The translations under genes and the position numbers were made by a program. A DNA stretch of 64,000 nucleotides from an uncultured Dehalococcoidia bacterium (GTDB lineage: Bacteria; Chloroflexota; Dehalococcoidia; Lucifugimonadales; UBA826), in contig CAZZBP010000002.1 in assembly GCA_964652755.1 (NCBI GenBank), positions 34,367 through 98,366 on the forward strand. Direction: 5' to 3'. The notes below the pieces were generated by a model. The model searched no databases. It was not told the origin of the DNA and saw only the letters and a list, made by a program, of their open reading frames with translations. Shown piece by piece: positions 2,418 through 51,531 of the stretch (its first letter is position 1; each line of letters begins with the position of its first letter).

Positions 2418-3863
2418 TCAGCCAACTTCACTTACTATTTTCCACTGGCCGTCCCGCATGGCACGGCTACCTTCATGCTCCCAGAATATTGGAGCACTCC
2501 TATGCCAATTTCTGTCTGTTATAGCTTTTAAAAGACTTTCACCTTCAAGTGGTTTTATTTCATTCCCAGATATTTCCTTGGGGTAAATTGCGGAAGCAGC
2601 GTCATAGATAGTCGCAGAGATATCTATGATATGGGCGGGTTCATGTATGATTGAACAATCCCTTATCTTATTAGGCCAGCGTATAACAAAAGGGGTTGAT
2701 ATTCCGCCTTCGTGAGTCCATCGCTTAAATAACCTAAAAGGCGTATTGCTTGTGTTTGCCCATGGTAAGTCGTAACTCATAAAAGTGTCATCAGGCCCTG
2801 GAATGAGATCCTTTCGGTTGCCGACTTTCATCGGTCGGCCATCTCTTGTAGGTGAAGCGTATTGGGACGGAAGTGGACGAGTACTGTCTTCCGCTAGGAA
2901 TTCGGCGCACCCTCCATTATCCGAAAGAAACATGACCACTGTATTGTCATCAAGACCCAGTTCTTTCAGTTTTTTCAATATTCTTCCTATTCCTTGATCC
3001 ATACGGTCAATCATGGCGGAGTAGACCGCCATTCTTAGATCTTCCCAATCATGATTCTTGGCTTCTTTCCATGGGCAGGACGCGGAGTCTCGCGGCGATA
3101 TTTCCCACTTCTCGTCGAGTATTCCCAGACCTTTAAGCTCTTCATGCCTGTTCGTTCTTACAACGTCCCATCCTGCTTGGTATTTTCCTTGGTATCTTGC
3201 GATATCCTCTTCCAAAGCGTGAAGGGGCCAATGTGGTGCTGTATAAGCCACGTGTAGAAAAAAAGGATTATCGTCTTGAGCTGTATCTTCTATCATGGAA
3301 AGTGCGTTATCTGTAATTGCGTCAGTCAAGTAAAAGTCTGGTGTTTCTATTTCAATCAGATCCTCATTTCTCATCAACGTACGGGGGTGAAAGTAATTAG
3401 CTGCTCCGGAAACTATGCCGAAGAACCTGTCAAAACCTCTCTGTACTGGGGTGGGGTGACCAACGCTGCCGGGAAACCAATTTGACTTGTCTAAAAGATC
3501 GTACCCACCACCTACGTGCCATTTGCCTGACATTAGTGTTGCGTACCCTGAACCTTTAAGTACTTCGGCGATAGTGGCACAGTTATCGTTTAGATAGCCC
3601 TGGTATGAAGGATACTTTGTCTCGTTTGGCCGATCAAAAGTGGAGTCCATATGTCGTATTCCTGCCTGGTGAGGATTATGCCCAGTTAGAAGGGAGGCTC
3701 TGGATGGGCAGCAGCGGGCCGAGTTGTACATCTGCGAGAATCTAACCCCAGTGTTTGCCAGAGAGTCGATGTTCGGAGTATTAATCTCAGAGCCGTAGCA
3801 GCCAAGGTCCGAATATCCCATGTCATCTGCCAGTATCAATACGAAGCTTGGTCTATCACTCAT
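2418..3863 (-). CDS. Arylsulfatase (formylglycine-dependent sulfatase family), ORF ends at an in-frame TGA
   Basis: The N-terminus reads FVLILADDMGYSDLGCYG, and the formylglycine motif CCPSRASLLTG (C-x-P-x-R) is present. GKWH and LSDNGG sulfatase motifs are also present. The ORF stops at TGA 2415-2417, but conserved sulfatase C-terminal sequence continues in frame (see next feature). Confidence 0.9.
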   Translation of the reverse strand: MSDRPSFVLILADDMGYSDLGCYGSEINTPNIDSLANTGVRFSQMYNSARCCPSRASLLTGHNPHQAGIRHMDSTFDRPNETKYPSYQGYLNDNCATIAEVLKGSGYATLMSGKWHVGGGYDLLDKSNWFPGSVGHPTPVQRGFDRFFGIVSGAANYFHPRTLMRNEDLIEIETPDFYLTDAITDNALSMIEDTAQDDNPFFLHVAYTAPHWPLHALEEDIARYQGKYQAGWDVVRTNRHEELKGLGILDEKWEISPRDSASCPWKEAKNHDWEDLRMAVYSAMIDRMDQGIGRILKKLKELGLDDNTVVMFLSDNGGCAEFLAEDSTRPLPSQYASPTRDGRPMKVGNRKDLIPGPDDTFMSYDLPWANTSNTPFRLFKRWTHEGGISTPFVIRWPNKIRDCSIIHEPAHIIDISATIYDAASAIYPKEISGNEIKPLEGESLLKAITDRNWHRSAPIFWEHEGSRAMRDGQWKIVSEVG

Positions 3864-12108: not shown

Positions 12109-13656
12109 ATGAATATAGCTTGCTTGCTTATAACTCATCTGGGAATCAAAGATGAGCTGCGCCGCCACCCTGATCTTGTGGGTAGAAACATTATTCTATA
12201 TAGAGCAGATTCATGTGCTCGCTCTGCGAAAACTCTTGGCAGATCTATTAAGTCAGTGGTTTTCGATGTTTCAAGTGGAGTTAGTGGAATACCTGTTGGA
12301 ATGCCTCTCTCAGCTGCGTTGTCTAAGTCTCCTGACTCTATAGTTTTACAGGCTGATCTAGAAAGATACAGAAAAGTCTTTGCCAGAATCATATCTGATT
12401 TAAGGAGGATAGCCCCTGCAGTGCAAGGCGCGGGCTTAGGTAGGGTATATGTGGATATGACAGGGTTGGAGTATATGTATGGTGGAGAGGCAAAGGTGGT
12501 TACCCGTATGCTGGAAACTGCTCCTGCTCTTTTTCATCCTCGCGTTGGTATTGCAAAGGGTAAGTTTCCTGCATATGTAGCTGCTTTATCCAGCCATCCG
12601 GGGAGGGCGACGAAGATTCCAGATAATCCCACAGGAACGACGGATTTCCTAGCTTCATTCCCAGTGGATGTGCTGCCTGTGGAGTGGCAGATGATAATGG
12701 AATTTCATCGATTTGCCATTCATACAATGGGTGAACTTGCTGCGCAAGATTTGGGTAATCTACAGACTAGGTTTGGTCCTGTGGGCCGAAAATCATGGGA
12801 ACTGGCACGTGGAATAGATCCAGATCGTGTAATTGAATTGAAGAAAAATGATGTACTTGATGAGTATGTCACACTCCCGTTTGCCTCTGCTTCGAGGGAA
12901 GTGTTATTCACAGCAATTGATGCCCTTCTCCGAAGGGCATACACGCGTCCAGGACTGAAAGGCAAATATGCACTCAAGTTTTTACTAAAATGCACAGTTG
13001 TAGGCTCTACACCCTGGTCTCGGGAGATTGTGATAAATGAGGCTGCGCCTAGCGCTTCAGCAGCGTCTTTTTCTATTCGTAGTGTTCTTTCTGATATAGA
13101 ACTTCCTGGACTCATTGAAGATGTGGCTCTCAGTGTTTCTGGATTCATAGGTGAACATGGCATACAGGCTCGTGCATTTAAAGATGTGCGGGAGCAGATT
13201 CAGAATAGATTGAACAGGCTTGCTAAGGTAGACCGACATCTGCAGGCGAAAACTGGAGGCAAGAAATCACTCTACCGAGTTGTGGAGGTAGATCCTATTC
13301 ATCCCGTTCCAGAGATGCGTTTTGTACAAGTTTCAGTAGATCCATTGTCTGTTGAATCGGTACGTTCCATTAATATGCCAGAGGAGGTGGAGATCGGAGA
13401 GTCGAAGGGTATTCCAGTGTCTGTGGCTCTTCCAGGTAAGGGAAGTATTCCTATTCGGGCCCGGGCTGTAGACATGTGGAAGATTGACCTCTGGTGGATG
13501 CACAGGCCTGTCCGACGAGTTTACTACGTTCTAAAGCTTGATGGTTCTGGTCCCCTAACTGTGTTCAGAGATACTTTGGGAGAGAGAGGGCTGATCACTG
13601 AAGAACATAGAGAAACCCCTGTCACGGGACATCGTTGGTACCGACAGGATTATTAA
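12109..13656 (+). CDS. imuB: ImuB-like Y-family DNA polymerase homolog (probably catalytically inactive)
   Basis: It shows Y-family palm/fingers-like similarity (..VYVDMTG.., ..IA..KF.A..A.., HTMGELA helix-hairpin-helix). The N-terminus reads IACLLITHLGIK instead of the DMDAFY-type catalytic acidic motif. It lies immediately upstream of dnaE2 and is translationally coupled to it. Confidence 0.75.
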   Translation: MNIACLLITHLGIKDELRRHPDLVGRNIILYRADSCARSAKTLGRSIKSVVFDVSSGVSGIPVGMPLSAALSKSPDSIVLQADLERYRKVFARIISDLRRIAPAVQGAGLGRVYVDMTGLEYMYGGEAKVVTRMLETAPALFHPRVGIAKGKFPAYVAALSSHPGRATKIPDNPTGTTDFLASFPVDVLPVEWQMIMEFHRFAIHTMGELAAQDLGNLQTRFGPVGRKSWELARGIDPDRVIELKKNDVLDEYVTLPFASASREVLFTAIDALLRRAYTRPGLKGKYALKFLLKCTVVGSTPWSREIVINEAAPSASAASFSIRSVLSDIELPGLIEDVALSVSGFIGEHGIQARAFKDVREQIQNRLNRLAKVDRHLQAKTGGKKSLYRVVEVDPIHPVPEMRFVQVSVDPLSVESVRSINMPEEVEIGESKGIPVSVALPGKGSIPIRARAVDMWKIDLWWMHRPVRRVYYVLKLDGSGPLTVFRDTLGERGLITEEHRETPVTGHRWYRQDY

Positions 13657-16600
13657 TGTCTTTGCATATGTCTCATAGTAGCTATACTTCACCTTCCTAT
13701 GTAGAGCTTCATGCACATAGTTTCTACTCATTTGGTGAAGGAGCATCTCACACTTATGAACTGCTCGGCCGGGCAGCTGAACTGGGTTATTCGGCCATGG
13801 GTCTCACTGATCACAACATGTGTGGTTCACTCGAGTTTGCGCGTCAGGCGAAGAGCTTGGGGATACAGCCAATCACTGGTGGGGAACTCACTCTAATAGA
13901 TGGCTCACATGTCGTCATGCTGGCAGAGAATAGGCGGGGTTACTCAAATATATCTCGTCTGTTTACTTTGGCTAACAGCTGGGACCGCAAAGACCCCCGG
14001 CTTGATCCGAAATACTTATCTGAGTATTCGGAAGGTATTGTCCTTCTCACGGGATGCAGGTCTGGTACGGTGCCCAATCTCGTGTCACAAGGAAAAGTGG
14101 AGAAGGCTCGGGATACACTACGATGCTATGTCGACTGGTTCGGGGCGGACTCCGTTTTCGTTGAACTGAGTCGTAATTTGGTCTATGGCGATACTGAACG
14201 TATACGTACACTTACTTCCGTTGCATCAGATGTTGGACTTCCTGTCGTGGCGACAAACAACGCACACTACCATATCCCAGAGCGTCATCGCTTGCAGGAC
14301 GCGCTGGTGGCAGTAAGTCATAACTGTACTATTGATAAAGTTGTTCATTACCTTAAATACAACAGCGAATTTCACCTCAAGTCCAAAACACAGATGAAAT
14401 ACCTTTTTCGGCACAGTCAGGAGGCGTTAGAAAATACTTTAAAGATAGCTGACCGATGTACTTTCGACCTATCTTCTGACTTGGGCTATACACTTCCTTC
14501 CCCTGACGTTCCGGAAGGATATACTCCTCTGACATATCTGCGCAGACTCTGTTACGAAGCAGCGCAACGTCGCTACGGGACGATTAATGATTTAGTTGAG
14601 GCGCGATTAACAGAAGAACTCCGCCTGATTGAAAAGCATGGTCTGGCGGGATTCATGCTACTTTATCGTGAGATAGCTCTACTTGCACGTGAAATCATGG
14701 TTGAGATGGGGACTGTAAACCAGGAGGAACCCCTTGAGTGGCGTCCTCCCGGAAGGGGGCGTGGTTCTTCAGTAGCGATGCTTACTGGTTACCTAATCGG
14801 AATATCCCATGTTGATCCTCTTTTGTACGATCTCACGTTAGAAAGATTCCTGCCTGATGATTTGCGTGTTCTGCCGGATATCGATCTCGATTTTCCTCGT
14901 TCTCTGCGTGATTCACTCATTGCTCGTATACATCAACACTTCGGTGCAGAGTTTGCCGTTCTGACTGGAATGATCACTACATACCGAGCTAAGGGAGTTG
15001 TGGCGGATTTAGGTAAGGCTTTCGGTATTCCTGATGAAGATTTAAGAAGGTTATCTAAGCAAATACATCAACACGATGCATCACGTCTACGTGAGGAGAT
15101 GATGTCTTTACCTGAATTCTCCAATCGAGTGGATCTTCCAGGCTGGCGTGATCTACTTGAGCTAGCGCCCCAGTTAGAAGGGGCTCCTAAGGGTTTAGGG
15201 CAGCATGTAGGAGGAATGATTCTGAGTTCCTCCCCGATCCCAGACATGGTTCCATGTCGTGAGGGAGCTATTAAGGGTCGCAATATAATTGACTGGGATA
15301 AGGAAAGTGTGGGCTACGCCGGATTTGCCAAGATAGATATATTGTCTCTGCCAGTTCTTGACCAATTAGACGAAGCCATTTCTTTAGTTGAGAAGCGCAC
15401 GGATAAGTGTGTAGATCTGAGTCGTATTGATCCGGAGGATTCCAGGGTGTACGACATGATAAATCAAGGACATTCCCGCGGAGTTTTTTTACTCCAATCA
15501 CCCGCTCAACTGAAAATGGGCCAGCGGTTGATGTCTCGTAATCTACAGGATCTGGCTTATCAAGTTGCTTTAATAAGACCTGGTGTAGGTATTCAGGGAA
15601 GTGGCGTATCTGAATTCATAGAACGATACCGACACAACGTTAAGTGGGAGTACGATCATCCCCTTGAGAAACGTGCTTTAGAGCGTGGTTACGGTGTAAT
15701 CATCTGGCAAGAACAGGTCGTGCAGCTTATATCTGATGTATCCGGTATGAGCCAGGCGGATGCTGACGAGATGCGAAGGGCATTTGCCCGACATAACAAT
15801 GAGAAGGTAATTACTGCGTATTGGGAGCGGTTTCGTGAAGGTGCTGTTGATCGAGGTGTGGATGAACACATCGCACGAAAAATATTCGCTAAGATAAATG
15901 GACATTATATGTTTCCTGAGTCGCACTCACATGCATTTGCAGTATCTGCATACCAGGCTGCCTGGATGAAGAGGTACTATCCGTTAGAGTTCTTCGTCGG
16001 GCTCATGAATAACCAGCCCATGGGCTTTTATCCCATGGAAGCAATAAAGCAGGATGCTCGCCGATTCGGGGTGAAATTTCTTAACCCATGCGTCAATCTC
16101 AGCGGGTCTCAATGTGAAATTTTGGATAATTCCCTACTGATTGGCCTGGAATTTGTAAAGAATCTTGGCAAGCGATCTGCTCAATCTATTATCGAGGAGC
16201 GTTCTTCTCATGGTTTGTTCGTGTCAGTGGGTGACTTTGTCCGTAGAGTGTCTATAGGACTTGATGCTATTGAGACCCTCATATTAGCGGGGGCATTCGA
16301 CTTTATATCCCGTAACCGTAGGGTTGCACTGTGGGAGGCTGGAATCTATCCCCATCCGTTAAAAGGACAGCGGCCATTACCTATGGAAATGGATATCAGT
16401 GTGCCGGAGTTAAAGGGGTTCACTCCGTATGAGGAAATGTTAGGTGAATATCGCTCTATGGGTATATATCCTGCGGGGCTTATTATGCTGTTTGTCCGAA
16501 GCAATCTGCCTTGTGGTGTTTCTAGGGCGTCAGATATTTATTCTATGAACGATAAAGAACGGGTGTCTGTGGCCGGATGGGCAATAGCCAGACAACATCC

Positions 16601-16829
16601 AAGAGGCCAGCATGGGACTGTATTTGTGACCGTAGAAGATGAAACGGCAGACGTTCAACTAATTGTCTGGCCGCAAATATTCAATCGCTTTAAACACCTT
16701 CTCAAAGCTCCACTGCTGCTGGCACATGGGGCGGTATCACGTTGGGACGGTACTACAAATGTGATTGTTTCTAGTTTAGAAAGTATACGGTCAGAGACAA
16801 CCCTACCGGCGGTACACGACTGGCATTGA
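13656..16829 (+). CDS. dnaE2: Error-prone DNA polymerase III alpha-subunit paralog DnaE2
   Basis: It has the PHP domain YVELHAHSFYSFGEGAS..GLTDHN, the pol III alpha core and a C-terminal OB fold. At about 1057 aa it has DnaE2-like length. The ATG at 13656 overlaps the imuB TAA (TAATG). The ORF track start at 13635 is an in-frame GTG further upstream. Confidence 0.9.
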   Translation: MSLHMSHSSYTSPSYVELHAHSFYSFGEGASHTYELLGRAAELGYSAMGLTDHNMCGSLEFARQAKSLGIQPITGGELTLIDGSHVVMLAENRRGYSNISRLFTLANSWDRKDPRLDPKYLSEYSEGIVLLTGCRSGTVPNLVSQGKVEKARDTLRCYVDWFGADSVFVELSRNLVYGDTERIRTLTSVASDVGLPVVATNNAHYHIPERHRLQDALVAVSHNCTIDKVVHYLKYNSEFHLKSKTQMKYLFRHSQEALENTLKIADRCTFDLSSDLGYTLPSPDVPEGYTPLTYLRRLCYEAAQRRYGTINDLVEARLTEELRLIEKHGLAGFMLLYREIALLAREIMVEMGTVNQEEPLEWRPPGRGRGSSVAMLTGYLIGISHVDPLLYDLTLERFLPDDLRVLPDIDLDFPRSLRDSLIARIHQHFGAEFAVLTGMITTYRAKGVVADLGKAFGIPDEDLRRLSKQIHQHDASRLREEMMSLPEFSNRVDLPGWRDLLELAPQLEGAPKGLGQHVGGMILSSSPIPDMVPCREGAIKGRNIIDWDKESVGYAGFAKIDILSLPVLDQLDEAISLVEKRTDKCVDLSRIDPEDSRVYDMINQGHSRGVFLLQSPAQLKMGQRLMSRNLQDLAYQVALIRPGVGIQGSGVSEFIERYRHNVKWEYDHPLEKRALERGYGVIIWQEQVVQLISDVSGMSQADADEMRRAFARHNNEKVITAYWERFREGAVDRGVDEHIARKIFAKINGHYMFPESHSHAFAVSAYQAAWMKRYYPLEFFVGLMNNQPMGFYPMEAIKQDARRFGVKFLNPCVNLSGSQCEILDNSLLIGLEFVKNLGKRSAQSIIEERSSHGLFVSVGDFVRRVSIGLDAIETLILAGAFDFISRNRRVALWEAGIYPHPLKGQRPLPMEMDISVPELKGFTPYEEMLGEYRSMGIYPAGLIMLFVRSNLPCGVSRASDIYSMNDKERVSVAGWAIARQHPRGQHGTVFVTVEDETADVQLIVWPQIFNRFKHLLKAPLLLAHGAVSRWDGTTNVIVSSLESIRSETTLPAVHDWH

Positions 16830-34251: not shown

Positions 34252-34995
34252 ATGCGTGAAGTTCAACTCTCAATCGTTATTCCTACCTTCAACGAATCTG
34301 ACAGGATACTAGGTACTCTCGATAGTTTGAAGAGGTATCTTGAATCTCGAGACTTTGTTTGGGAGATCGTACTGTCGGATGATGGCAGTTTAGACGACAC
34401 CGTCGCCCTTGTTAAATCATGGTCCGCTGTAAACCTAAACCTGCAGGATGAGACTATGAGAATAATTCAGCTTAATCATCGCGGTAAAGGCTCGGCGGTA
34501 CGACATGGCATGCTTCGAGCGGTTGGCGACATAAGAGTTATGTGTGATGCAGATCTTGCAATGTCCGCAGATCAAATTGACGGGTTTATTTCGAAGTTTA
34601 AGGAGGGATACGACATTGTTATAGGTTCCAGAGAAAAAACTGGGGCAAGGAGGTTTGATGAGCCGGTTTTACGGCACATTATGGGTAGAATATTTAACTG
34701 GTATGTCCGTTCCATAGCTGTAGGTGGGTTTCAAGACACTCAATGTGGCTATAAATGTTTTTCATCGAAAGCTGCAGAATCGCTATTTAGAATGCAGAAG
34801 CTGGATGGGTGGTGTTTCGATGTTGAAATACTTTTACTTGCTCGTAAGAATTCCATGAGAATATTTGAACTTCCCATTGATTGGTACCACAAAGAGAAAA
34901 GTAAAGTAACCTTGGGCGCGGCGTCAATCGAGATGGTAAGGGATACGCTCTTGACCTCTATTAGGTATATGATCGGGTCATATAACAAGATTTGA
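34252..34995 (+). CDS. Family 2 glycosyltransferase (dolichyl/polyprenyl-phosphate beta-glucosyltransferase-like)
   Basis: ..LSIVIPTFNE.. and ..SDDGS.D.T.. motifs and a DAD (D-x-D) motif are present, plus ..QCGYKCF... Soluble, 247 aa. Confidence 0.8.
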   Translation: MREVQLSIVIPTFNESDRILGTLDSLKRYLESRDFVWEIVLSDDGSLDDTVALVKSWSAVNLNLQDETMRIIQLNHRGKGSAVRHGMLRAVGDIRVMCDADLAMSADQIDGFISKFKEGYDIVIGSREKTGARRFDEPVLRHIMGRIFNWYVRSIAVGGFQDTQCGYKCFSSKAAESLFRMQKLDGWCFDVEILLLARKNSMRIFELPIDWYHKEKSKVTLGAASIEMVRDTLLTSIRYMIGSYNKI

Positions 34996-35034
34996 GGGCA
35001 TTACTATAGTGAGCATTTTCCAACTTTTGTTCAA

Positions 35035-35814
35035 TTGGAGATGCTTGTGAGGAGTTTAAGTTATGAGAACGAGTACTCTTCTTGCAAATCAGTCTGCGTG
35101 GTCGTGCCGACTTATAACGAGTCTGAAAATCTCTCTGAACTGACTGAAAGAATTTTTTCACTAAACCTTCCACGTTTATCAGTTTTAATTGTTGATGATA
35201 ATTCACCGGACTGCACGGCCGAAACTGCGTGGAGGCTCTCCTTACAATACGAAGGGGCAATCCAAGTTCTTCATAGGAAAACGAGAAACGGTTTGGGAAC
35301 AGCATATATAGAAGGTTTCCAAAGTGCCTTGGCCAAGGGATATGAGATTATTGTACAGATGGATGCGGACCTGTCCCACAGGCCAGAATATTTGCCTCAA
35401 ATGATAGATCTTCTTCGAGAATATGATGTGGTTGTTGGATCTAGATACATTGATAAAAGTAGTACAGATAGTGAATGGGGTATTCACCGAAAGATTCTAA
35501 GTTTTTGTGGAAATTTGGGAATTAGATGGATTTCAGGTATCCAAGCAAATGATGTTACTTCCGGATTTAAGGCTTTTTGTGCAGGGACTTTGAAAGAAAT
35601 AGACTGGACCAAAATAAGGAGTTCTGGATTTGGATTTCAAGCGGAAATCGCTTTTCATTGTGAGAAAAACGGACTTAAAGTTTTAGAGTACCCGATTGTA
35701 TTCGAAGAAAGAACTCGTGGAAAATCAAAAATGTCTCTTGCAATTATTTGTGAAGCTGTCTACATAATTCTCTCACTTCGAGCCAATTTCCTATTTCGAC
35801 AAAAGTCAAAATAG
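35035..35814 (+). CDS. Family 2 glycosyltransferase (polyprenol-monophosphomannose synthase / Dpm1-Ppm1-like)
   Basis: ..VVVPTYNESENL.., ..VDDNSPD.T.., ..GLG.AY..G.., QMDADLSH.P.Y.. and ..GSRY.. motifs are typical of Dpm1/Ppm1-type enzymes. Confidence 0.8.
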   Translation: MEMLVRSLSYENEYSSCKSVCVVVPTYNESENLSELTERIFSLNLPRLSVLIVDDNSPDCTAETAWRLSLQYEGAIQVLHRKTRNGLGTAYIEGFQSALAKGYEIIVQMDADLSHRPEYLPQMIDLLREYDVVVGSRYIDKSSTDSEWGIHRKILSFCGNLGIRWISGIQANDVTSGFKAFCAGTLKEIDWTKIRSSGFGFQAEIAFHCEKNGLKVLEYPIVFEERTRGKSKMSLAIICEAVYIILSLRANFLFRQKSK

Positions 35815-48968: not shown

Positions 48969-50261
48969 ATGGTCAAAAGAATCGGTATTGGGCTTCTTGG
49001 CATGGGAGTTGTTGGTGGTGGGGTAGCACGCATAATTTCTGAGAAGAGTGATTTACTTGAACGACAAATTGGTGCAAAACTGGATCTCCGGGGTGTTTTA
49101 GTCAGGAACCAGAATAAACCGAGATCCTTCCAACTACCTGAAGGCAGGTTCGTAGATTCATCCGAGTCAATACTGGGAGACTCCAACGTAGACATCGTTG
49201 TCGAACTGATGGGTGGGGAAGAACCAGCGTTAAGTTATATTCTCAAAGCAGTAAGTAATGGTAAACATGTCGTCACCGCCAATAAAGAGGTGATGGCAAA
49301 GCACGGACCTGCCATATTTGATGCTGCAAGAAAAAGAGATGTGCGGGTACTATTTGAAGCGAGTGTAGCGGGTGGGACACCAATCGTATCTCCTCTGATG
49401 AGGGATTTGGTTTCGAATGATGTCAAGTCTATAAAAGCAATAATTAACGGCACTACAAACTACATATTAACGAGAATGGCAAACGAGCAAGCGGATTATG
49501 AGGAAGTGCTTCAAGCGGCACAAGCCTTAGGATATGCGGAGTCTGATCCAACTAACGATGTCGAAGGTATAGATGCCTCATATAAATTAGCGATTCTTTC
49601 TACACTGGCCTTTAGGGCGCAGGTAAAAAACACGGATGTACATTACGAAGGAATCACTCGTTTAACTGCTCAGGATTTCCTGTATTCCGATGAGTTGGGC
49701 TACTCGATCAAACTTTTGGCAATCTCTACTCGGGTCGACAGCCAGGTTCAAGCCAGAGTTCACCCAGCATTGGTTGATAAAAACCAAATGCTTGCGAAAG
49801 TTGACGGCGTGCTCAATGCAGTTGAGGTTGAAACGGACCTCGCTAGTAGTGTCATGTTTTATGGCCCGGGTGCAGGCGAAATGCCGACCGCTAGTGCGGT
49901 TGTCGCTGATATAGTGAATATTGGAAGGAATATAGCGGGTAACGCGGCGTTTCTTGACCCTGTGCGGCTGTCGGAGCAGATCACCGTACAACCTATGTCT
50001 GAGTTGATATCTGAATACTATTTACGACTTGAAGCCAAAGACCAGCCAGGGGTTTTGGCGAAGATTGCCTCTGTTTTGGCAGGGAACGGTATTAGCATAT
50101 CGTCTTTTTTGCAGAAAGGTTCTAACCAACAGAAGGGCACTGCAGAAATGGTTATAATGACCCATGAGGCACGTGAGGAGGCCATTCAAAAGGCTCTAGA
50201 TAGCATTAGTAATCTAGATGTAGTGGCAAATATAGCTAATATGATCCGGGTCGTTAAATGA
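48969..50261 (+). CDS. hom: Homoserine dehydrogenase with a C-terminal ACT domain
   Basis: ..IGIGLLGMGVVGGGV.. (the NAD-binding motif), ..VVTANK.., ..FEASVAGG.PI.., ..I.GI.NGTTNYIL..M and ..A...GYAE.DPT.DVEG.D.. motifs are present. Confidence 0.93.
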   Translation: MVKRIGIGLLGMGVVGGGVARIISEKSDLLERQIGAKLDLRGVLVRNQNKPRSFQLPEGRFVDSSESILGDSNVDIVVELMGGEEPALSYILKAVSNGKHVVTANKEVMAKHGPAIFDAARKRDVRVLFEASVAGGTPIVSPLMRDLVSNDVKSIKAIINGTTNYILTRMANEQADYEEVLQAAQALGYAESDPTNDVEGIDASYKLAILSTLAFRAQVKNTDVHYEGITRLTAQDFLYSDELGYSIKLLAISTRVDSQVQARVHPALVDKNQMLAKVDGVLNAVEVETDLASSVMFYGPGAGEMPTASAVVADIVNIGRNIAGNAAFLDPVRLSEQITVQPMSELISEYYLRLEAKDQPGVLAKIASVLAGNGISISSFLQKGSNQQKGTAEMVIMTHEAREEAIQKALDSISNLDVVANIANMIRVVK

Positions 50262-50282
50262 TATAGACATGGGAGTGGCCTG

Positions 50283-50630
50283 ATGAACAAAGCTACTTTT
50301 TACACTTGGAGTCGCTGAAGTACTTGCAAGAAAGTGAGGGTGGAACTCTTGCAGGCAGGTCTTGATATTCAAGAAAGAGATTTCTTTAAAGACCCGTTTT
50401 CACGGGAAGAAATGCATAATCTCTTAGGTGAAAAAGATCCTTCGGATTTCTTTTCATTTAGAAGCCCTTCTTTTCGAAAATTAGGTATTGAAAGAAATTC
50501 ACTGAACCGTGACAGATTGATAGAACTTATGCTAAGTGAACCTCGACTAATTAGGAGACCTATAATTTCAATTGGCACACAAGCCATCGTTGGAACAGAC
50601 AGGAAATCATTAGCCGAAATACTTGGGTGA
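50283..50630 (+). CDS. Spx/ArsC/YffB-family thioredoxin-fold protein with in-frame TGA (50316-50318) at the CxxC active site; candidate selenoprotein (UxxC)
   Basis: Manual translation from ATG 50283 (GGGAG RBS 7 nt upstream) gives MNKATFYTWSR-TGA-STCKKVRVELLQAGLDIQERDFFKDP.., continuous with the track ORF 50334..50630. The family motifs ..S.RS..F.KL.. and ..L.RRPII.. are present. The TGA aligns with the first Cys of the family CxxC. Confidence 0.7.
50323..50355 (+). promoter_or_regulatory. SECIS-like hairpin immediately 3' of the in-frame UGA
   Basis: The lower stem CTTGCAAG(50323-30)/CTTGCAGG(50348-55) has 8 bp including one G-U pair. The upper stem is AGT/ACT with a 2-nt AA bulge, and the G-rich 9-nt apical loop is GAGGGTGGA. 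The hairpin starts 5 nt after the UGA, and the loop lies about 18 nt after it. Confidence 0.55.
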
Positions 50631-50722: not shown

Positions 50723-51531
50723 ATGATTGGTTTACATGGAAAGCATGCGATTGTAACTGGTGGTGGAAGGGGAATTGGAAAGGGTATTAGTGAAACTCTT
50801 GCGAGACTAGGGGCCAGTTTTTGTTGCCGACATAGAACTTTCCTCCGCTGAATTGACCATCCAAACGCTTGCAGGGGATGGTCAATTCCTATGCGGTATT
50901 GTAAATGTTACAGAGACATCTACAGTTAAGCATTTGATTGAGGATGATATAAAAACTTTTGGGAAAATCGACGGACTCGTCAATAATGCTGGCATCAATG
51001 GAACGGGAGAATGGTGGGAACGTGAGACTCCCAATGATAAAAGCTGGTCCAGAGTTCATGAAGTCAATGTTAGGGAAGTTGTTCGTGTGTCAGAATTAAT
51101 TGTCCCGCACATGAAAAAACGTAAATATGGAAAGATTGTCAACATAGCTTCAATCGCGGCTCGTCAAGGCAGCTCAGATCTTCCACATTACAGCTCGACG
51201 AAAGCTGCTGTGGTGAGTTGGACTAAGTCTAACGCACTCCAACGCGCTCCCTTTGACGTTAATGTTAACGCGATCTTGCCCGAGGTTTCTTTGGGCTCTG
51301 ATATGGGAGTCAATAGCGAGAAAACGTGCAAGATTTGGAGATCAAACTTTGGAACTGGTAAATTCCACCGGCAGAGAAGTGTTTGAGCAAATAGTAGAAC
51401 AATGGATTCCTATGAAAAGGGAGCAAACACCTGAAGATATAGGTAACATGGCCGCTTTCTTAGCTTCCGACATGGCACGTAATATCACCGGTCAGGCCAT
51501 CAATGTTGATGGTGGAAGATTTATGAATTAG
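50723..51531 (+). pseudogene. Short-chain dehydrogenase/reductase (SDR) disrupted by two +1 frameshifts
   Basis: Frame A (from ATG 50723) gives MIGLHGKHAIVTGGGRGIGKGISETLARLGA.. (the TGxxxGxG motif) and stops at 50849-51. Frame B (50853..) carries ..NNAG.., ..S..A..G....YSSTKAA.. (YxxxK) and ..VNVNAILP. Frame C (to 51531) carries ..FLWALIWE.. and ..[29 protein letters not shown]... The shifts map to the T5 run at 50818-22 and to CCCGAGGTTT at 51279-88. Confidence 0.8.

What the first reader, a model, noticed from the sequence alone, without database searches (positions are those of the whole stretch)
50283..50630. Candidate selenoprotein: Spx/ArsC-family gene with UGA at the first Cys of CxxC plus a SECIS-like hairpin
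The ORF track starts this gene at GTG 50334 (98 aa). That start removes the beta1-CxxC N-terminus that defines the ArsC/Spx/YffB family. Reading the same frame from ATG 50283 (GGGAG RBS 7 nt upstream) gives MNKATFYTWSR-TGA-STCKKVRVELLQAGLDIQERDFFKDP... By eye this aligns position for position with Spx-type N-termini (..[21 protein letters not shown].I....R.IF..P). The TGA (50316-50318) falls exactly on the redox-active first Cys. A stable hairpin begins five nucleotides after the UGA (50323-50355, G-rich apical loop about 18 nt downstream), which matches bacterial SECIS geometry. TGA serves as an ordinary stop elsewhere in the window (for example dnaE2 at 16827-16829), so this is not a global code change. 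A UxxC thioredoxin-fold protein is chemically sensible. No sel genes or tRNA-Sec lie in this window.
Basis: partly seen in the sequence, partly recalled or inferred. Interest (0 to 1): 0.85.

Follow-up and report, generated by a model that had tools for sequence, protein, structure and literature searches.

The report
Known ArsC/Spx-like selenoprotein gene, mis-annotated
This is a real selenocysteine-encoding gene for a small redox protein in a marine SAR202 (Chloroflexota) bacterium; gene callers truncate it at the UGA, but the protein family was already reported as a selenoprotein in 2008, so it is correct but not new.

Summary
ATG 50283 follows a GGGAG ribosome-binding site, and reading through TGA 50316-50318 gives a 115-aa ArsC/Spx-fold protein with a U-x-x-C motif. 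In 74 of 80 species-representative genomes (Dehalococcoidia/SAR202 and Syntrophales) the same codon is TGA, and the upstream codons are conserved ([FY]Y[TWC]Wx[RK]-U-[SN][TS]C). In the other 6 genomes, in 11 Cys-form representative clusters and in Spx (Cys10), the position is Cys. An 8-bp hairpin lies 15 nt after the UGA (50334-50341/50345-50352, loop GGA). It is 95.8% paired across 74 sequences, and 6 of 8 pairs show compensatory changes. The first loop base is G in 72 of 74. Four of five Cys forms tested lack the hairpin. TGA is an ordinary stop for 15 of 44 long ORFs in the window. The family is already published as "Arsenate reductase 2 (UxxC)" in Zhang & Gladyshev 2008; three of their reads belong to this subfamily. 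No NCBIfam model covers the subfamily, so databases hold 93-98-aa truncated calls. Sec machinery in this genome could not be tested. Biochemical function is unknown; the protein meets neither ArsC nor Spx criteria.

The parts
50271..50275 (+). Shine-Dalgarno-like GGGAG, 7 nt before the start codon
   Evidence: Read directly from the sequence.
50283..50630 (+). Full coding sequence of the selenoprotein: 115 aa including Sec12. Start is ATG 50283-50285 and the terminating stop is TGA 50628-50630.
   Evidence: Translation. Pfam ArsC PF03960 covers profile positions 1-78 only when the N-terminus is included. The conserved upstream codons appear in 74 species.
50316..50318 (+). In-frame TGA read as selenocysteine (U12), the first residue of U-S-T-C
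   Evidence: TGA at the homologous codon in 74 of 80 GTDB species loci and TGC in 6. It aligns with Spx Cys10 and with Cys in 11 full-length representative clusters.
50325..50327 (+). TGC codon for Cys15, the putative resolving cysteine of the UxxC motif
   Evidence: Invariant column C15. It aligns with Spx Cys13.
50334..50352 (+). SECIS-type hairpin inside the coding sequence. The 8-bp stem is 50334-50341 / 50345-50352 and the apical loop is GGA 50342-50344. It starts 15 nt after the UGA.
   Evidence: Across 74 distinct sequences 95.8% of cells pair, 6 of 8 pairs carry compensatory changes, 0 of 500 shuffles reach this, and slid controls give 32-65%. RNAalifold finds the same helix. The first loop base is G in 72 of 74, and 4 of 5 Cys forms tested lack the helix.

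Best explanation
Window 50283-50630 is one gene for a 115-aa selenoprotein of the ArsC/Spx/YffB thioredoxin-like superfamily. UGA 50316-50318 is decoded as selenocysteine. An 8-bp hairpin with a G-first apical loop lies 15 nt downstream of the UGA, inside the coding sequence. It is inferred to act as a bacterial SECIS, recruiting SelB-GTP-Sec-tRNA(Sec) to the ribosome so that it outcompetes release factor 2. The gene's own terminal UGA (50628-50630) has no such hairpin and terminates normally. In the protein, Sec12 and Cys15 sit in the loop between strand beta1 and helix alpha1 and in the first turn of that helix, where Spx has its C10-x-x-C13 redox pair. They are inferred to cycle between a selenol/thiol state and a selenenylsulfide. 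The gene, the Sec position and the conserved RNA helix are shown here. SelB binding, selenium insertion and the redox chemistry are inferred. The physiological partner or substrate is unknown. My best guess is a small selenol-thiol oxidoreductase or redox sensor. It is neither a glutaredoxin-coupled arsenate reductase nor a canonical RNA-polymerase-binding Spx. The gene belongs to the already published selenoprotein family 'Arsenate reductase 2 (UxxC)'.
For: Sequence and frame. Domain: Pfam ArsC reaches profile position 1 only with the N-terminus. Homologues: 425 database relatives, almost all 93-99 aa and covering 80-85% of the query, which marks them as calls truncated at the UGA. The in-frame TGA with conserved YYTWxR-U-STCRK is seen in independent contigs, including 3.3-3.9 Mb chromosomes. 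Codon counts are 74 TGA and 6 TGC among 80 GTDB species loci from Dehalococcoidia/SAR202 and Syntrophales/Smithellaceae. Cys counterparts: P0098, six GTDB loci and 11 full-length representative clusters, plus Spx C10/C13. SECIS. One example is column 29, the second position of a Val/Ala codon, which covaries with column 45, a third codon position (CG 42, UA 21, UG 8). That fits RNA pairing and not protein constraint. TGA is a normal stop for 15 of 44 long ORFs. Fold: the AlphaFold model of Cys homologue P0098 has pLDDT 88.5, and its best PDB matches are ArsC, Spx and YffB. Prior description: GOS supplementary sequences JCVI_READ_1318105, 1121231 and 1095390070075 are listed under 'Arsenate reductase 2 UxxC' and are 44-47% identical to the window protein, with U at the same place. 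[quoted passage not shown] 7 legend).
Against: No selA, selB, selD or tRNA-Sec was found in the window or in about 0.5 Mb of related loci, and the rest of the genome could not be searched. No Rfam family matches. The hairpin in this one sequence is weak on its own, at -7.0 kcal/mol with three G-U pairs. An alternative, more stable but unconserved pairing competes for the same 3' arm. There is no expression, proteomic or selenium-labelling evidence. The neighbouring SDR gene carries two frameshifts, so this assembly or genome does contain defects. The protein reaches no curated NCBIfam cut-off, so the biochemical function is open.
Confidence: 0.9

Rival explanations
1. The ORF caller is right. 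The gene starts at GTG 50334 or a nearby start, TGA 50316 is simply an upstream stop, and the 11 upstream codons are non-coding.
For: All public gene calls use a downstream start and give 93-98 aa. The 98-aa form still passes the Pfam ArsC threshold at 46 bits.
Against: The 98-aa form lacks strand beta1 and the CxxC motif of the fold. The upstream codons and the TGG three codons before the TGA are conserved at the protein level in 74 species down to about 45% identity. Downstream starts are inconsistent between relatives: GTG, TTG or ATG at different codons, giving 90-99 aa. Cys-form relatives are full length.
Confidence: 0.03
2. The TGA is a sequencing or assembly error, or a recent nonsense mutation (TGC/TGT to TGA) in a decaying gene.
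For: The adjacent SDR gene in this window has a 2-nt deletion and a 1-nt insertion relative to an intact orthologue.
Against: The same TGA occurs in 74 of 80 species representatives and in many independent metagenome assemblies. The rest of the ORF is intact and conserved. A covarying RNA helix accompanies the TGA forms and is absent from most Cys forms.
Confidence: 0.02
3. The UGA is read through, but not as selenocysteine. It could be read by a suppressor or near-cognate tRNA as Trp or Cys, or by the Sec machinery carrying Cys when selenium is scarce.
For: The Sec machinery was not demonstrated in this genome. One database gene call translates the codon as W (P0153), which reflects a caller using a TGA=Trp code.
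Against: TGA terminates a third of the long ORFs in the window, so there is no general reassignment. The codon sits exactly on a redox Cys position, with a hairpin whose spacing and G-first loop resemble bacterial SECIS elements. The family is listed among selenoproteins in Sec-using lineages (PMC2398784, PMC13326102).
Confidence: 0.05

Closest known systems
'Arsenate reductase 2 (UxxC)' selenoprotein family of Zhang & Gladyshev 2008 (GOS selenoproteome, PMC2398784; cd03032 ArsC_Spx). It is listed again as 'Arsenate reductase-like protein, COG1393, UxxC' in the 2022 review PMC9312934.
   Same: Same fold family, same UxxC motif, and U at the same aligned residue. Three of the published reads (JCVI_READ_1318105, 1121231, 1095390070075) share the subfamily signatures ERD[FI]F and EPRLI[RK]RP. 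Two of them, 1318105 and 1095390070075, were compared with the window protein and are 44-47% identical.
   Different: Nothing essential. The published group is heterogeneous, and most of its reads belong to a different subfamily (DWYYxRxGUTTC). The window gene is a SAR202 orthologue on a long contig, where the published evidence was single reads.
NCBIfam NF041106 'ArsC family (seleno)protein' (ArsC_rel_Se_1)
   Same: ArsC-fold selenoprotein with UxxC near the N-terminus.
   Different: The window protein scores 26 bits against a cut-off of 85. A majority-type GOS read scores 116 bits. The window protein therefore belongs to a separate subfamily with no curated selenoprotein model.
Spx, the redox-sensing RNA-polymerase-binding regulator of Bacillota (PDB 1Z3E, 3GFK, 3L78)
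   Same: Best solved-structure relatives by sequence (E 6e-12 to 5e-11). U12 and C15 align with Spx C10 and C13, and the LIRRPI motif is identical.
   Different: The protein is 115 aa against 131 aa and lacks the Spx C-terminal tail. Spx Gly52, known to be needed for alpha-CTD binding (recalled knowledge), aligns with a variable position that is Asp52 here. The Spx models score 56 against a cut-off of 123, and 67.6 against 75. It occurs in Chloroflexota and Desulfobacterota, not Bacillota.
Glutaredoxin-coupled arsenate reductase ArsC (R773, PDB 1I9D) and YffB (PDB 1RW1)
   Same: Same fold, with Foldseek TM-scores of 0.67-0.76. The nucleophile is at the equivalent N-terminal position (ArsC Cys12).
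   Different: TIGR00014 scores 38 against a cut-off of 106. ArsC and YffB use a single Cys, not a CxxC pair. The positions matching ArsC Arg60 and Arg107 vary within this family (R/K/N and R/S/K).
Bacterial SECIS element (E. coli fdhF type; bSECISearch model)
   Same: A stem-loop inside the coding sequence just 3' of the UGA, with conserved G at the start of the apical loop.
   Different: The first loop G lies at position 27 counted from the U of the UGA. In fdhF it is at about position 23 (recalled knowledge). The formal apical loop is only 3 nt (G-G/U-N), and no conserved lower stem or bulged U was detected. bSECISearch itself was not run.

Membership tests
Bacterial selenoprotein gene | In-frame UGA conserved among orthologues and aligned with Cys in homologues | tested here: met
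   TGA in 74 of 80 species loci and TGC in 6. Cys at this position in P0098, in 11 full-length representative clusters and at Spx C10.
Bacterial selenoprotein gene | Coding conservation continues upstream of the UGA | tested here: met
   [FYL]Y[TWC]Wx[RK] precedes the U in relatives down to about 45% identity, and the TGG codon three codons upstream is at least 90% conserved.
Bacterial selenoprotein gene | SECIS stem-loop immediately 3' of the UGA with G in the apical loop | tested here: met
   8-bp helix, 95.8% paired, compensatory changes in 6 of 8 pairs, 0 of 500 shuffles as high. Loop G in 72 of 74 sequences, and the helix is absent in 4 of 5 Cys forms tested. bSECISearch was not available.
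Bacterial selenoprotein gene | selA, selB, selD and tRNA-Sec present in the same genome | not testable with these tools
   None in the window or in 88 related loci. Whole genomes could not be scanned. The literature gives indirect support only (PMC13326102; bioRxiv 10.1101/2022.01.25.477282).
Bacterial selenoprotein gene | Selenium actually incorporated (75Se labelling or mass spectrometry) | not testable with these tools
   This requires an experiment.
GOS 'Arsenate reductase 2 (UxxC)' selenoprotein family | ArsC/Spx-domain protein with UxxC and significant similarity to the listed Sec sequences, with U at the same residue | tested here: met
   BLASTP E values of 1e-31 and 2e-33 at 47% and 44% identity, with no gaps, to JCVI_READ_1095390070075 and 1318105.
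NCBIfam NF041106 ArsC family (seleno)protein | Score at or above the curated cut-off of 85 bits | tested here: not met
   26.1 bits.
Spx/MgsR RNA-polymerase-binding regulators | Score at or above the curated cut-offs (TIGR01617 75.05; NF002459 123) | tested here: not met
   67.6 and 56.4 bits.
Spx/MgsR RNA-polymerase-binding regulators | N-terminal CxxC redox switch | tested here: met
   U12-x-x-C15 aligns with C10-x-x-C13.
Spx/MgsR RNA-polymerase-binding regulators | Gly52 alpha-CTD contact and a C-terminal extension of about 25 residues | tested here: not met
   Gly52 aligns with Asp52 after a 2-residue gap, and the column varies in the family. The protein ends at residue 115. The importance of Gly52 is recalled knowledge, not tested here.
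Glutaredoxin-coupled arsenate reductase ArsC | TIGR00014 score at or above 106 bits | tested here: not met
   38.3 bits.
Glutaredoxin-coupled arsenate reductase ArsC | Conserved Arg60/Arg94/Arg107 oxyanion triad | tested here: inconclusive
   The window protein has R60, R91/R92 and R107. In the family, positions 60 (R/K/N) and 107 (R/S/K) vary, and only the RRP arginines are conserved. Correspondence to the ArsC residues rests on sequence alignment only.

The most novel reading that the evidence does not exclude
The ERDFF/EPRLIRRP subfamily could be a selenium-dependent Spx-like redox sensor that contacts RNA polymerase or another partner in Dehalococcoidia/SAR202 and Syntrophales. In this subfamily Sec is almost fixed (74 of 80 species). 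That would make it the first selenoprotein transcription regulator. A more modest reading is a dedicated reductase whose substrate explains why these lineages keep Sec here. Nothing in the evidence excludes either reading. The missing Spx Gly52 and C-terminal tail argue against a canonical Spx mechanism.
Probability: 0.1. Interest if true: 0.5.

Novelty: already known. Interest (0 to 1): 0.22.

Why it matters
The scientific content is not new. ArsC/Spx-like UxxC selenoproteins have been catalogued since 2005-2008, and Dehalococcoidia are known to be rich in selenoproteins.

The practical value is for annotation. This subfamily has no curated selenoprotein model. As a result, GenBank/PGAP and metagenome gene callers record it as a 93-98-aa 'ArsC/Spx/MgsR family' or hypothetical protein without its active site (for example MDP7224093.1, PKB60255.1).

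The search returned 425 clusters at 90% identity (E <= 0.001). Of the 120 listed, 119 are 77-103 aa and lack the N-terminus. A family HMM that tolerates U, plus the 19-nt SECIS helix described here, would fix these calls. The subfamily is also a clean natural data set of Sec forms and Cys forms for studying how a SECIS is lost after Sec-to-Cys conversion. L072 keeps the stem but has lost the loop G.

Tried and rejected
- **Rfam:** a gathering-threshold scan of the whole window gave no hits.
- **Other selenoprotein genes:** I scanned the window and all fetched loci for other TGA-interrupted ORFs with CxxU or UxxC contexts. Only off-frame noise came up. The one striking same-frame ORF pair (34252-34995 / 35035-35814) is two complete GT2 glycosyltransferase genes.
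- **Sec machinery:** tblastn with E. coli SelA/SelB/SelD and ARAGORN on the window plus 88 loci found nothing. I found no way to obtain a Dehalococcoidia Sel protein as a query, so the machinery test was abandoned.
- **BSepDB supplements:** none are held as text.
both were tested on the alignment and rejected as unconserved.
- **Structure prediction:** Foldseek could not separate Spx-like from ArsC-like or YffB-like folds.
- **Promoter and terminator scan:** nothing above chance around the gene.
- **Literature on SAR202 selenoproteins:** the searches gave almost nothing specific.

Full report
**1. The observation**

GGGAG sits at 50271-50275, seven nt before ATG 50283. TGA at 50316-50318 is in frame with the ORF that the mechanical list starts at GTG 50334. 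Reading through gives a 115-aa product, MNKATFYTWSR-U-STCKKVRVELLQ..., that ends at TGA 50628-50630. Upstream of the ATG the frame closes at the TGA stop of the homoserine dehydrogenase gene (50259-50261), so ATG 50283 is the only usable start.

With U written as C, Pfam ArsC (PF03960) matches profile positions 1-78 at 59 bits, and Glutaredoxin also matches residues 5-49. The GTG-start form matches only positions 17-78 at 46 bits. The window has no tRNA gene and no Rfam hit. There is no general recoding of TGA.

**2. Comparative evidence for a Sec codon**

A search of 5.8 billion proteins gave 425 relatives. The closest are named SAR202 cluster bacterium (Chloroflexota). Of the 120 listed, 119 are 77-103 aa (most 93-99) and cover only about 80-85% of the query. 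Only P0098 is full length (115 aa), and it has Cys at the U position (FYCWAKCNACRQ).

I fetched the DNA around truncated calls on independent contigs, including contigs of 3.3 and 3.9 Mb. All have an in-frame TGA preceded by conserved codons (YYTWxR-TGA-STCRK).

A scan of one genome per GTDB species returned 80 loci from Dehalococcoidia/SAR202 and from Syntrophales/Smithellaceae. Of these, 74 have TGA at the homologous codon and 6 have TGC (L044, L072, L077, L080, L082, L085). One of the two search patterns required Cys at that position, so the sampling was not biased towards TGA. However, the 80 kept were those most similar to the window protein.

An exhaustive HMMER search of 1.84 billion cluster representatives found 439 related clusters. 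Roughly 107 of the best 150 lack the N-terminus. Of 12 full-length representatives inspected, 11 have Cys at the U position. One has Trp there, from a gene call made with a TGA=Trp code.

The best solved-structure relatives are Spx proteins (E 6e-12 to 5e-11). U12 and C15 align exactly with Spx C10 and C13.

**3. The RNA element**

I aligned 74 distinct TGA-form sequences from -9 to +62 nt around the TGA. They align without gaps. An 8-bp helix occupies columns 28-35 and 39-46. In window coordinates that is 50334-50341 and 50345-50352, with loop GGA at 50342-50344.

- The helix is paired in 95.8% of cells.
- Six of the eight pairs carry compensatory double changes.
- None of 500 column shuffles reaches the observed values.
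- Sliding the 3' partner by 1-3 columns drops pairing to 32-65%.
- RNAalifold independently predicts the same helix.

Some of the covariation links a non-synonymous position to a synonymous one. The second base of a Val/Ala codon covaries with the third base of a Ser/Leu codon (CG 42, UA 21, UG 8). That is what an RNA constraint predicts and a protein constraint does not.

The first loop base is G in 72 of 74 sequences. The loops are GUU, GGA, GGC, GUC and a few others. [quoted passage not shown] 7 legend).

The fixed-helix energy has a median of -8.6 kcal/mol in TGA forms. In four of the five Cys forms tested it is positive, meaning no helix forms. The fifth, L072, keeps the stem but has UUU in the loop, which looks like a recent Sec-to-Cys conversion.

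Only 64% of cells pair, and 485 of 500 shuffles do as well. A lower stem predicted by single-sequence folding is not conserved either.

A single hairpin here would not be significant. The z-score is -1.56, and 35 comparable hairpins occur on the + strand of the window. The weight of the evidence comes from the comparison across species.

**4. How it most likely works**

- **Shown:** one gene, a conserved UGA on a redox-Cys position, and a conserved covarying hairpin that begins 15 nt after the UGA.
- **Inferred from the established bacterial mechanism:** SelB carrying Sec-tRNA(Sec) binds the hairpin's apical part and delivers Sec at the UGA. The gene's terminal UGA lacks a hairpin and terminates.
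- **Inferred from the fold:** the AlphaFold model of Cys homologue P0098 has pLDDT 88.5, and its best PDB matches are ArsC, Spx and YffB. On this basis U12 and C15 sit in the loop between strand beta1 and helix alpha1 and in the first turn of that helix, and form a selenenylsulfide redox pair.

The gene context varies outside SAR202 (hom-arsC-SDR in SAR202, rpsF-ssb-rpsR upstream elsewhere). No operon therefore suggests a substrate.

**5. Comparison with what is known**

The GOS selenoproteome paper lists 'Arsenate reductase 2, cd03032, UxxC' with 42 Sec sequences and 238 Cys homologues (PMC2398784). Its supplementary FASTA contains three reads of exactly this subfamily: JCVI_READ_1318105, 1121231 and 1095390070075. 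Two of them, 1318105 and 1095390070075, were compared with the window protein and are 44-47% identical, with U at the same residue. By eye, read 1095390070075 nearly matches the N-terminal part of the product of SAR202 locus L079.

The 2022 review repeats the family (PMC9312934). BSepDB (2026) places two Dehalococcoidia MAGs, with 49 and 46 selenoproteins, among the ten most selenoprotein-rich bacteria (PMC13326102). A Lost City study reports SAR202 MAGs with glycine reductase GrdB and notes that the grd clusters in most of its MAGs also contain SelA and SelB.

The family, the Sec position and the lineage's use of Sec are therefore already known.

Most of the GOS 'Arsenate reductase 2' reads belong to a different subfamily, which NCBIfam NF041106 recognises at 116 bits. 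The window subfamily scores only 26-28 bits there and reaches no curated cut-off at all. That is why NCBI records hold truncated 96-98-aa 'ArsC/Spx/MgsR family' or hypothetical proteins.

The protein is not a member of Spx proper. Its scores fall below the cut-offs, Spx Gly52 aligns with a variable Asp52, and it has no C-terminal tail. It is not a member of ArsC proper either: TIGR00014 scores 38 against 106, it has a CxxC pair instead of a single Cys, and the arginine triad is not conserved.

**6. What could not be done**

Sec machinery in the source genome could not be tested. Nothing was found in the window or in about 0.5 Mb of related loci, and whole genomes could not be scanned. No expression or selenium-incorporation data are available.

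**7. Verdict**

The gene is a genuine but already catalogued selenoprotein that is systematically mis-annotated. Interest is low for discovery and modest for curation.

Noticed in passing
window 50723-51531 (+): The short-chain dehydrogenase gene just downstream is broken into three ORF pieces. Compared with the intact 269-aa orthologue in L007 (88% DNA identity), the window has a 2-nt deletion near 50816-50817 and a 1-nt insertion near 51276. It is either a pseudogene or carries assembly indels.
   Followed up: partly
window 50628-50630 and 50259-50261: The selenoprotein gene ends in TGA, and so does the upstream homoserine dehydrogenase gene, 21 nt before the ATG. Three UGAs within 370 nt are read in two different ways. 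Only the one followed by the conserved hairpin is a Sec candidate.
   Followed up: yes
L072 (Dehalococcoidales R103_18), about 3028-3090: This Cys-form (TGC) orthologue still has the SECIS stem (-7.7 kcal/mol), but its loop is UUU where close relatives have GUU. It looks like a recent Sec-to-Cys conversion with the SECIS starting to decay.
   Followed up: partly
P0153 (179-aa cluster representative): It has Trp at the Sec position (FWNRWSSCRK) and a long spurious N-terminal extension. The gene call was evidently made with a genetic code that reads TGA as Trp.
   Followed up: no
L062 and L067 (MAG W156, contigs DUEV01000004.1 and DUEV01000006.1): One Dehalococcoidia MAG carries two TGA-form paralogues of this gene on different contigs.
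   Followed up: no
window 12109-16829 (+): An ImuB-like Y-family polymerase gene (PF00817) overlaps the start of a DnaE2-like DNA polymerase III alpha gene by 22 nt. This is the layout of an ImuB-DnaE2 mutagenesis cassette. No imuA was looked for.
   Followed up: no
window 34252-35814 (+): Two ORFs in the same frame are separated by a TGA and 13 codons. Each is a complete family-2 glycosyltransferase domain, so they are tandem paralogues and not a readthrough gene.
   Followed up: yes
PMC2398784 supplementary file 3, group 'Arsenate reductase 2 UxxC': The published group mixes at least three sequence types. The majority type (DWYYxRxGUTTC) is NCBIfam NF041106. The ERDFF/EPRLIRRP type is the one studied here. 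A few reads are of a third type (ICTKTUSACRKA, PRLLQRPI).
   Followed up: partly
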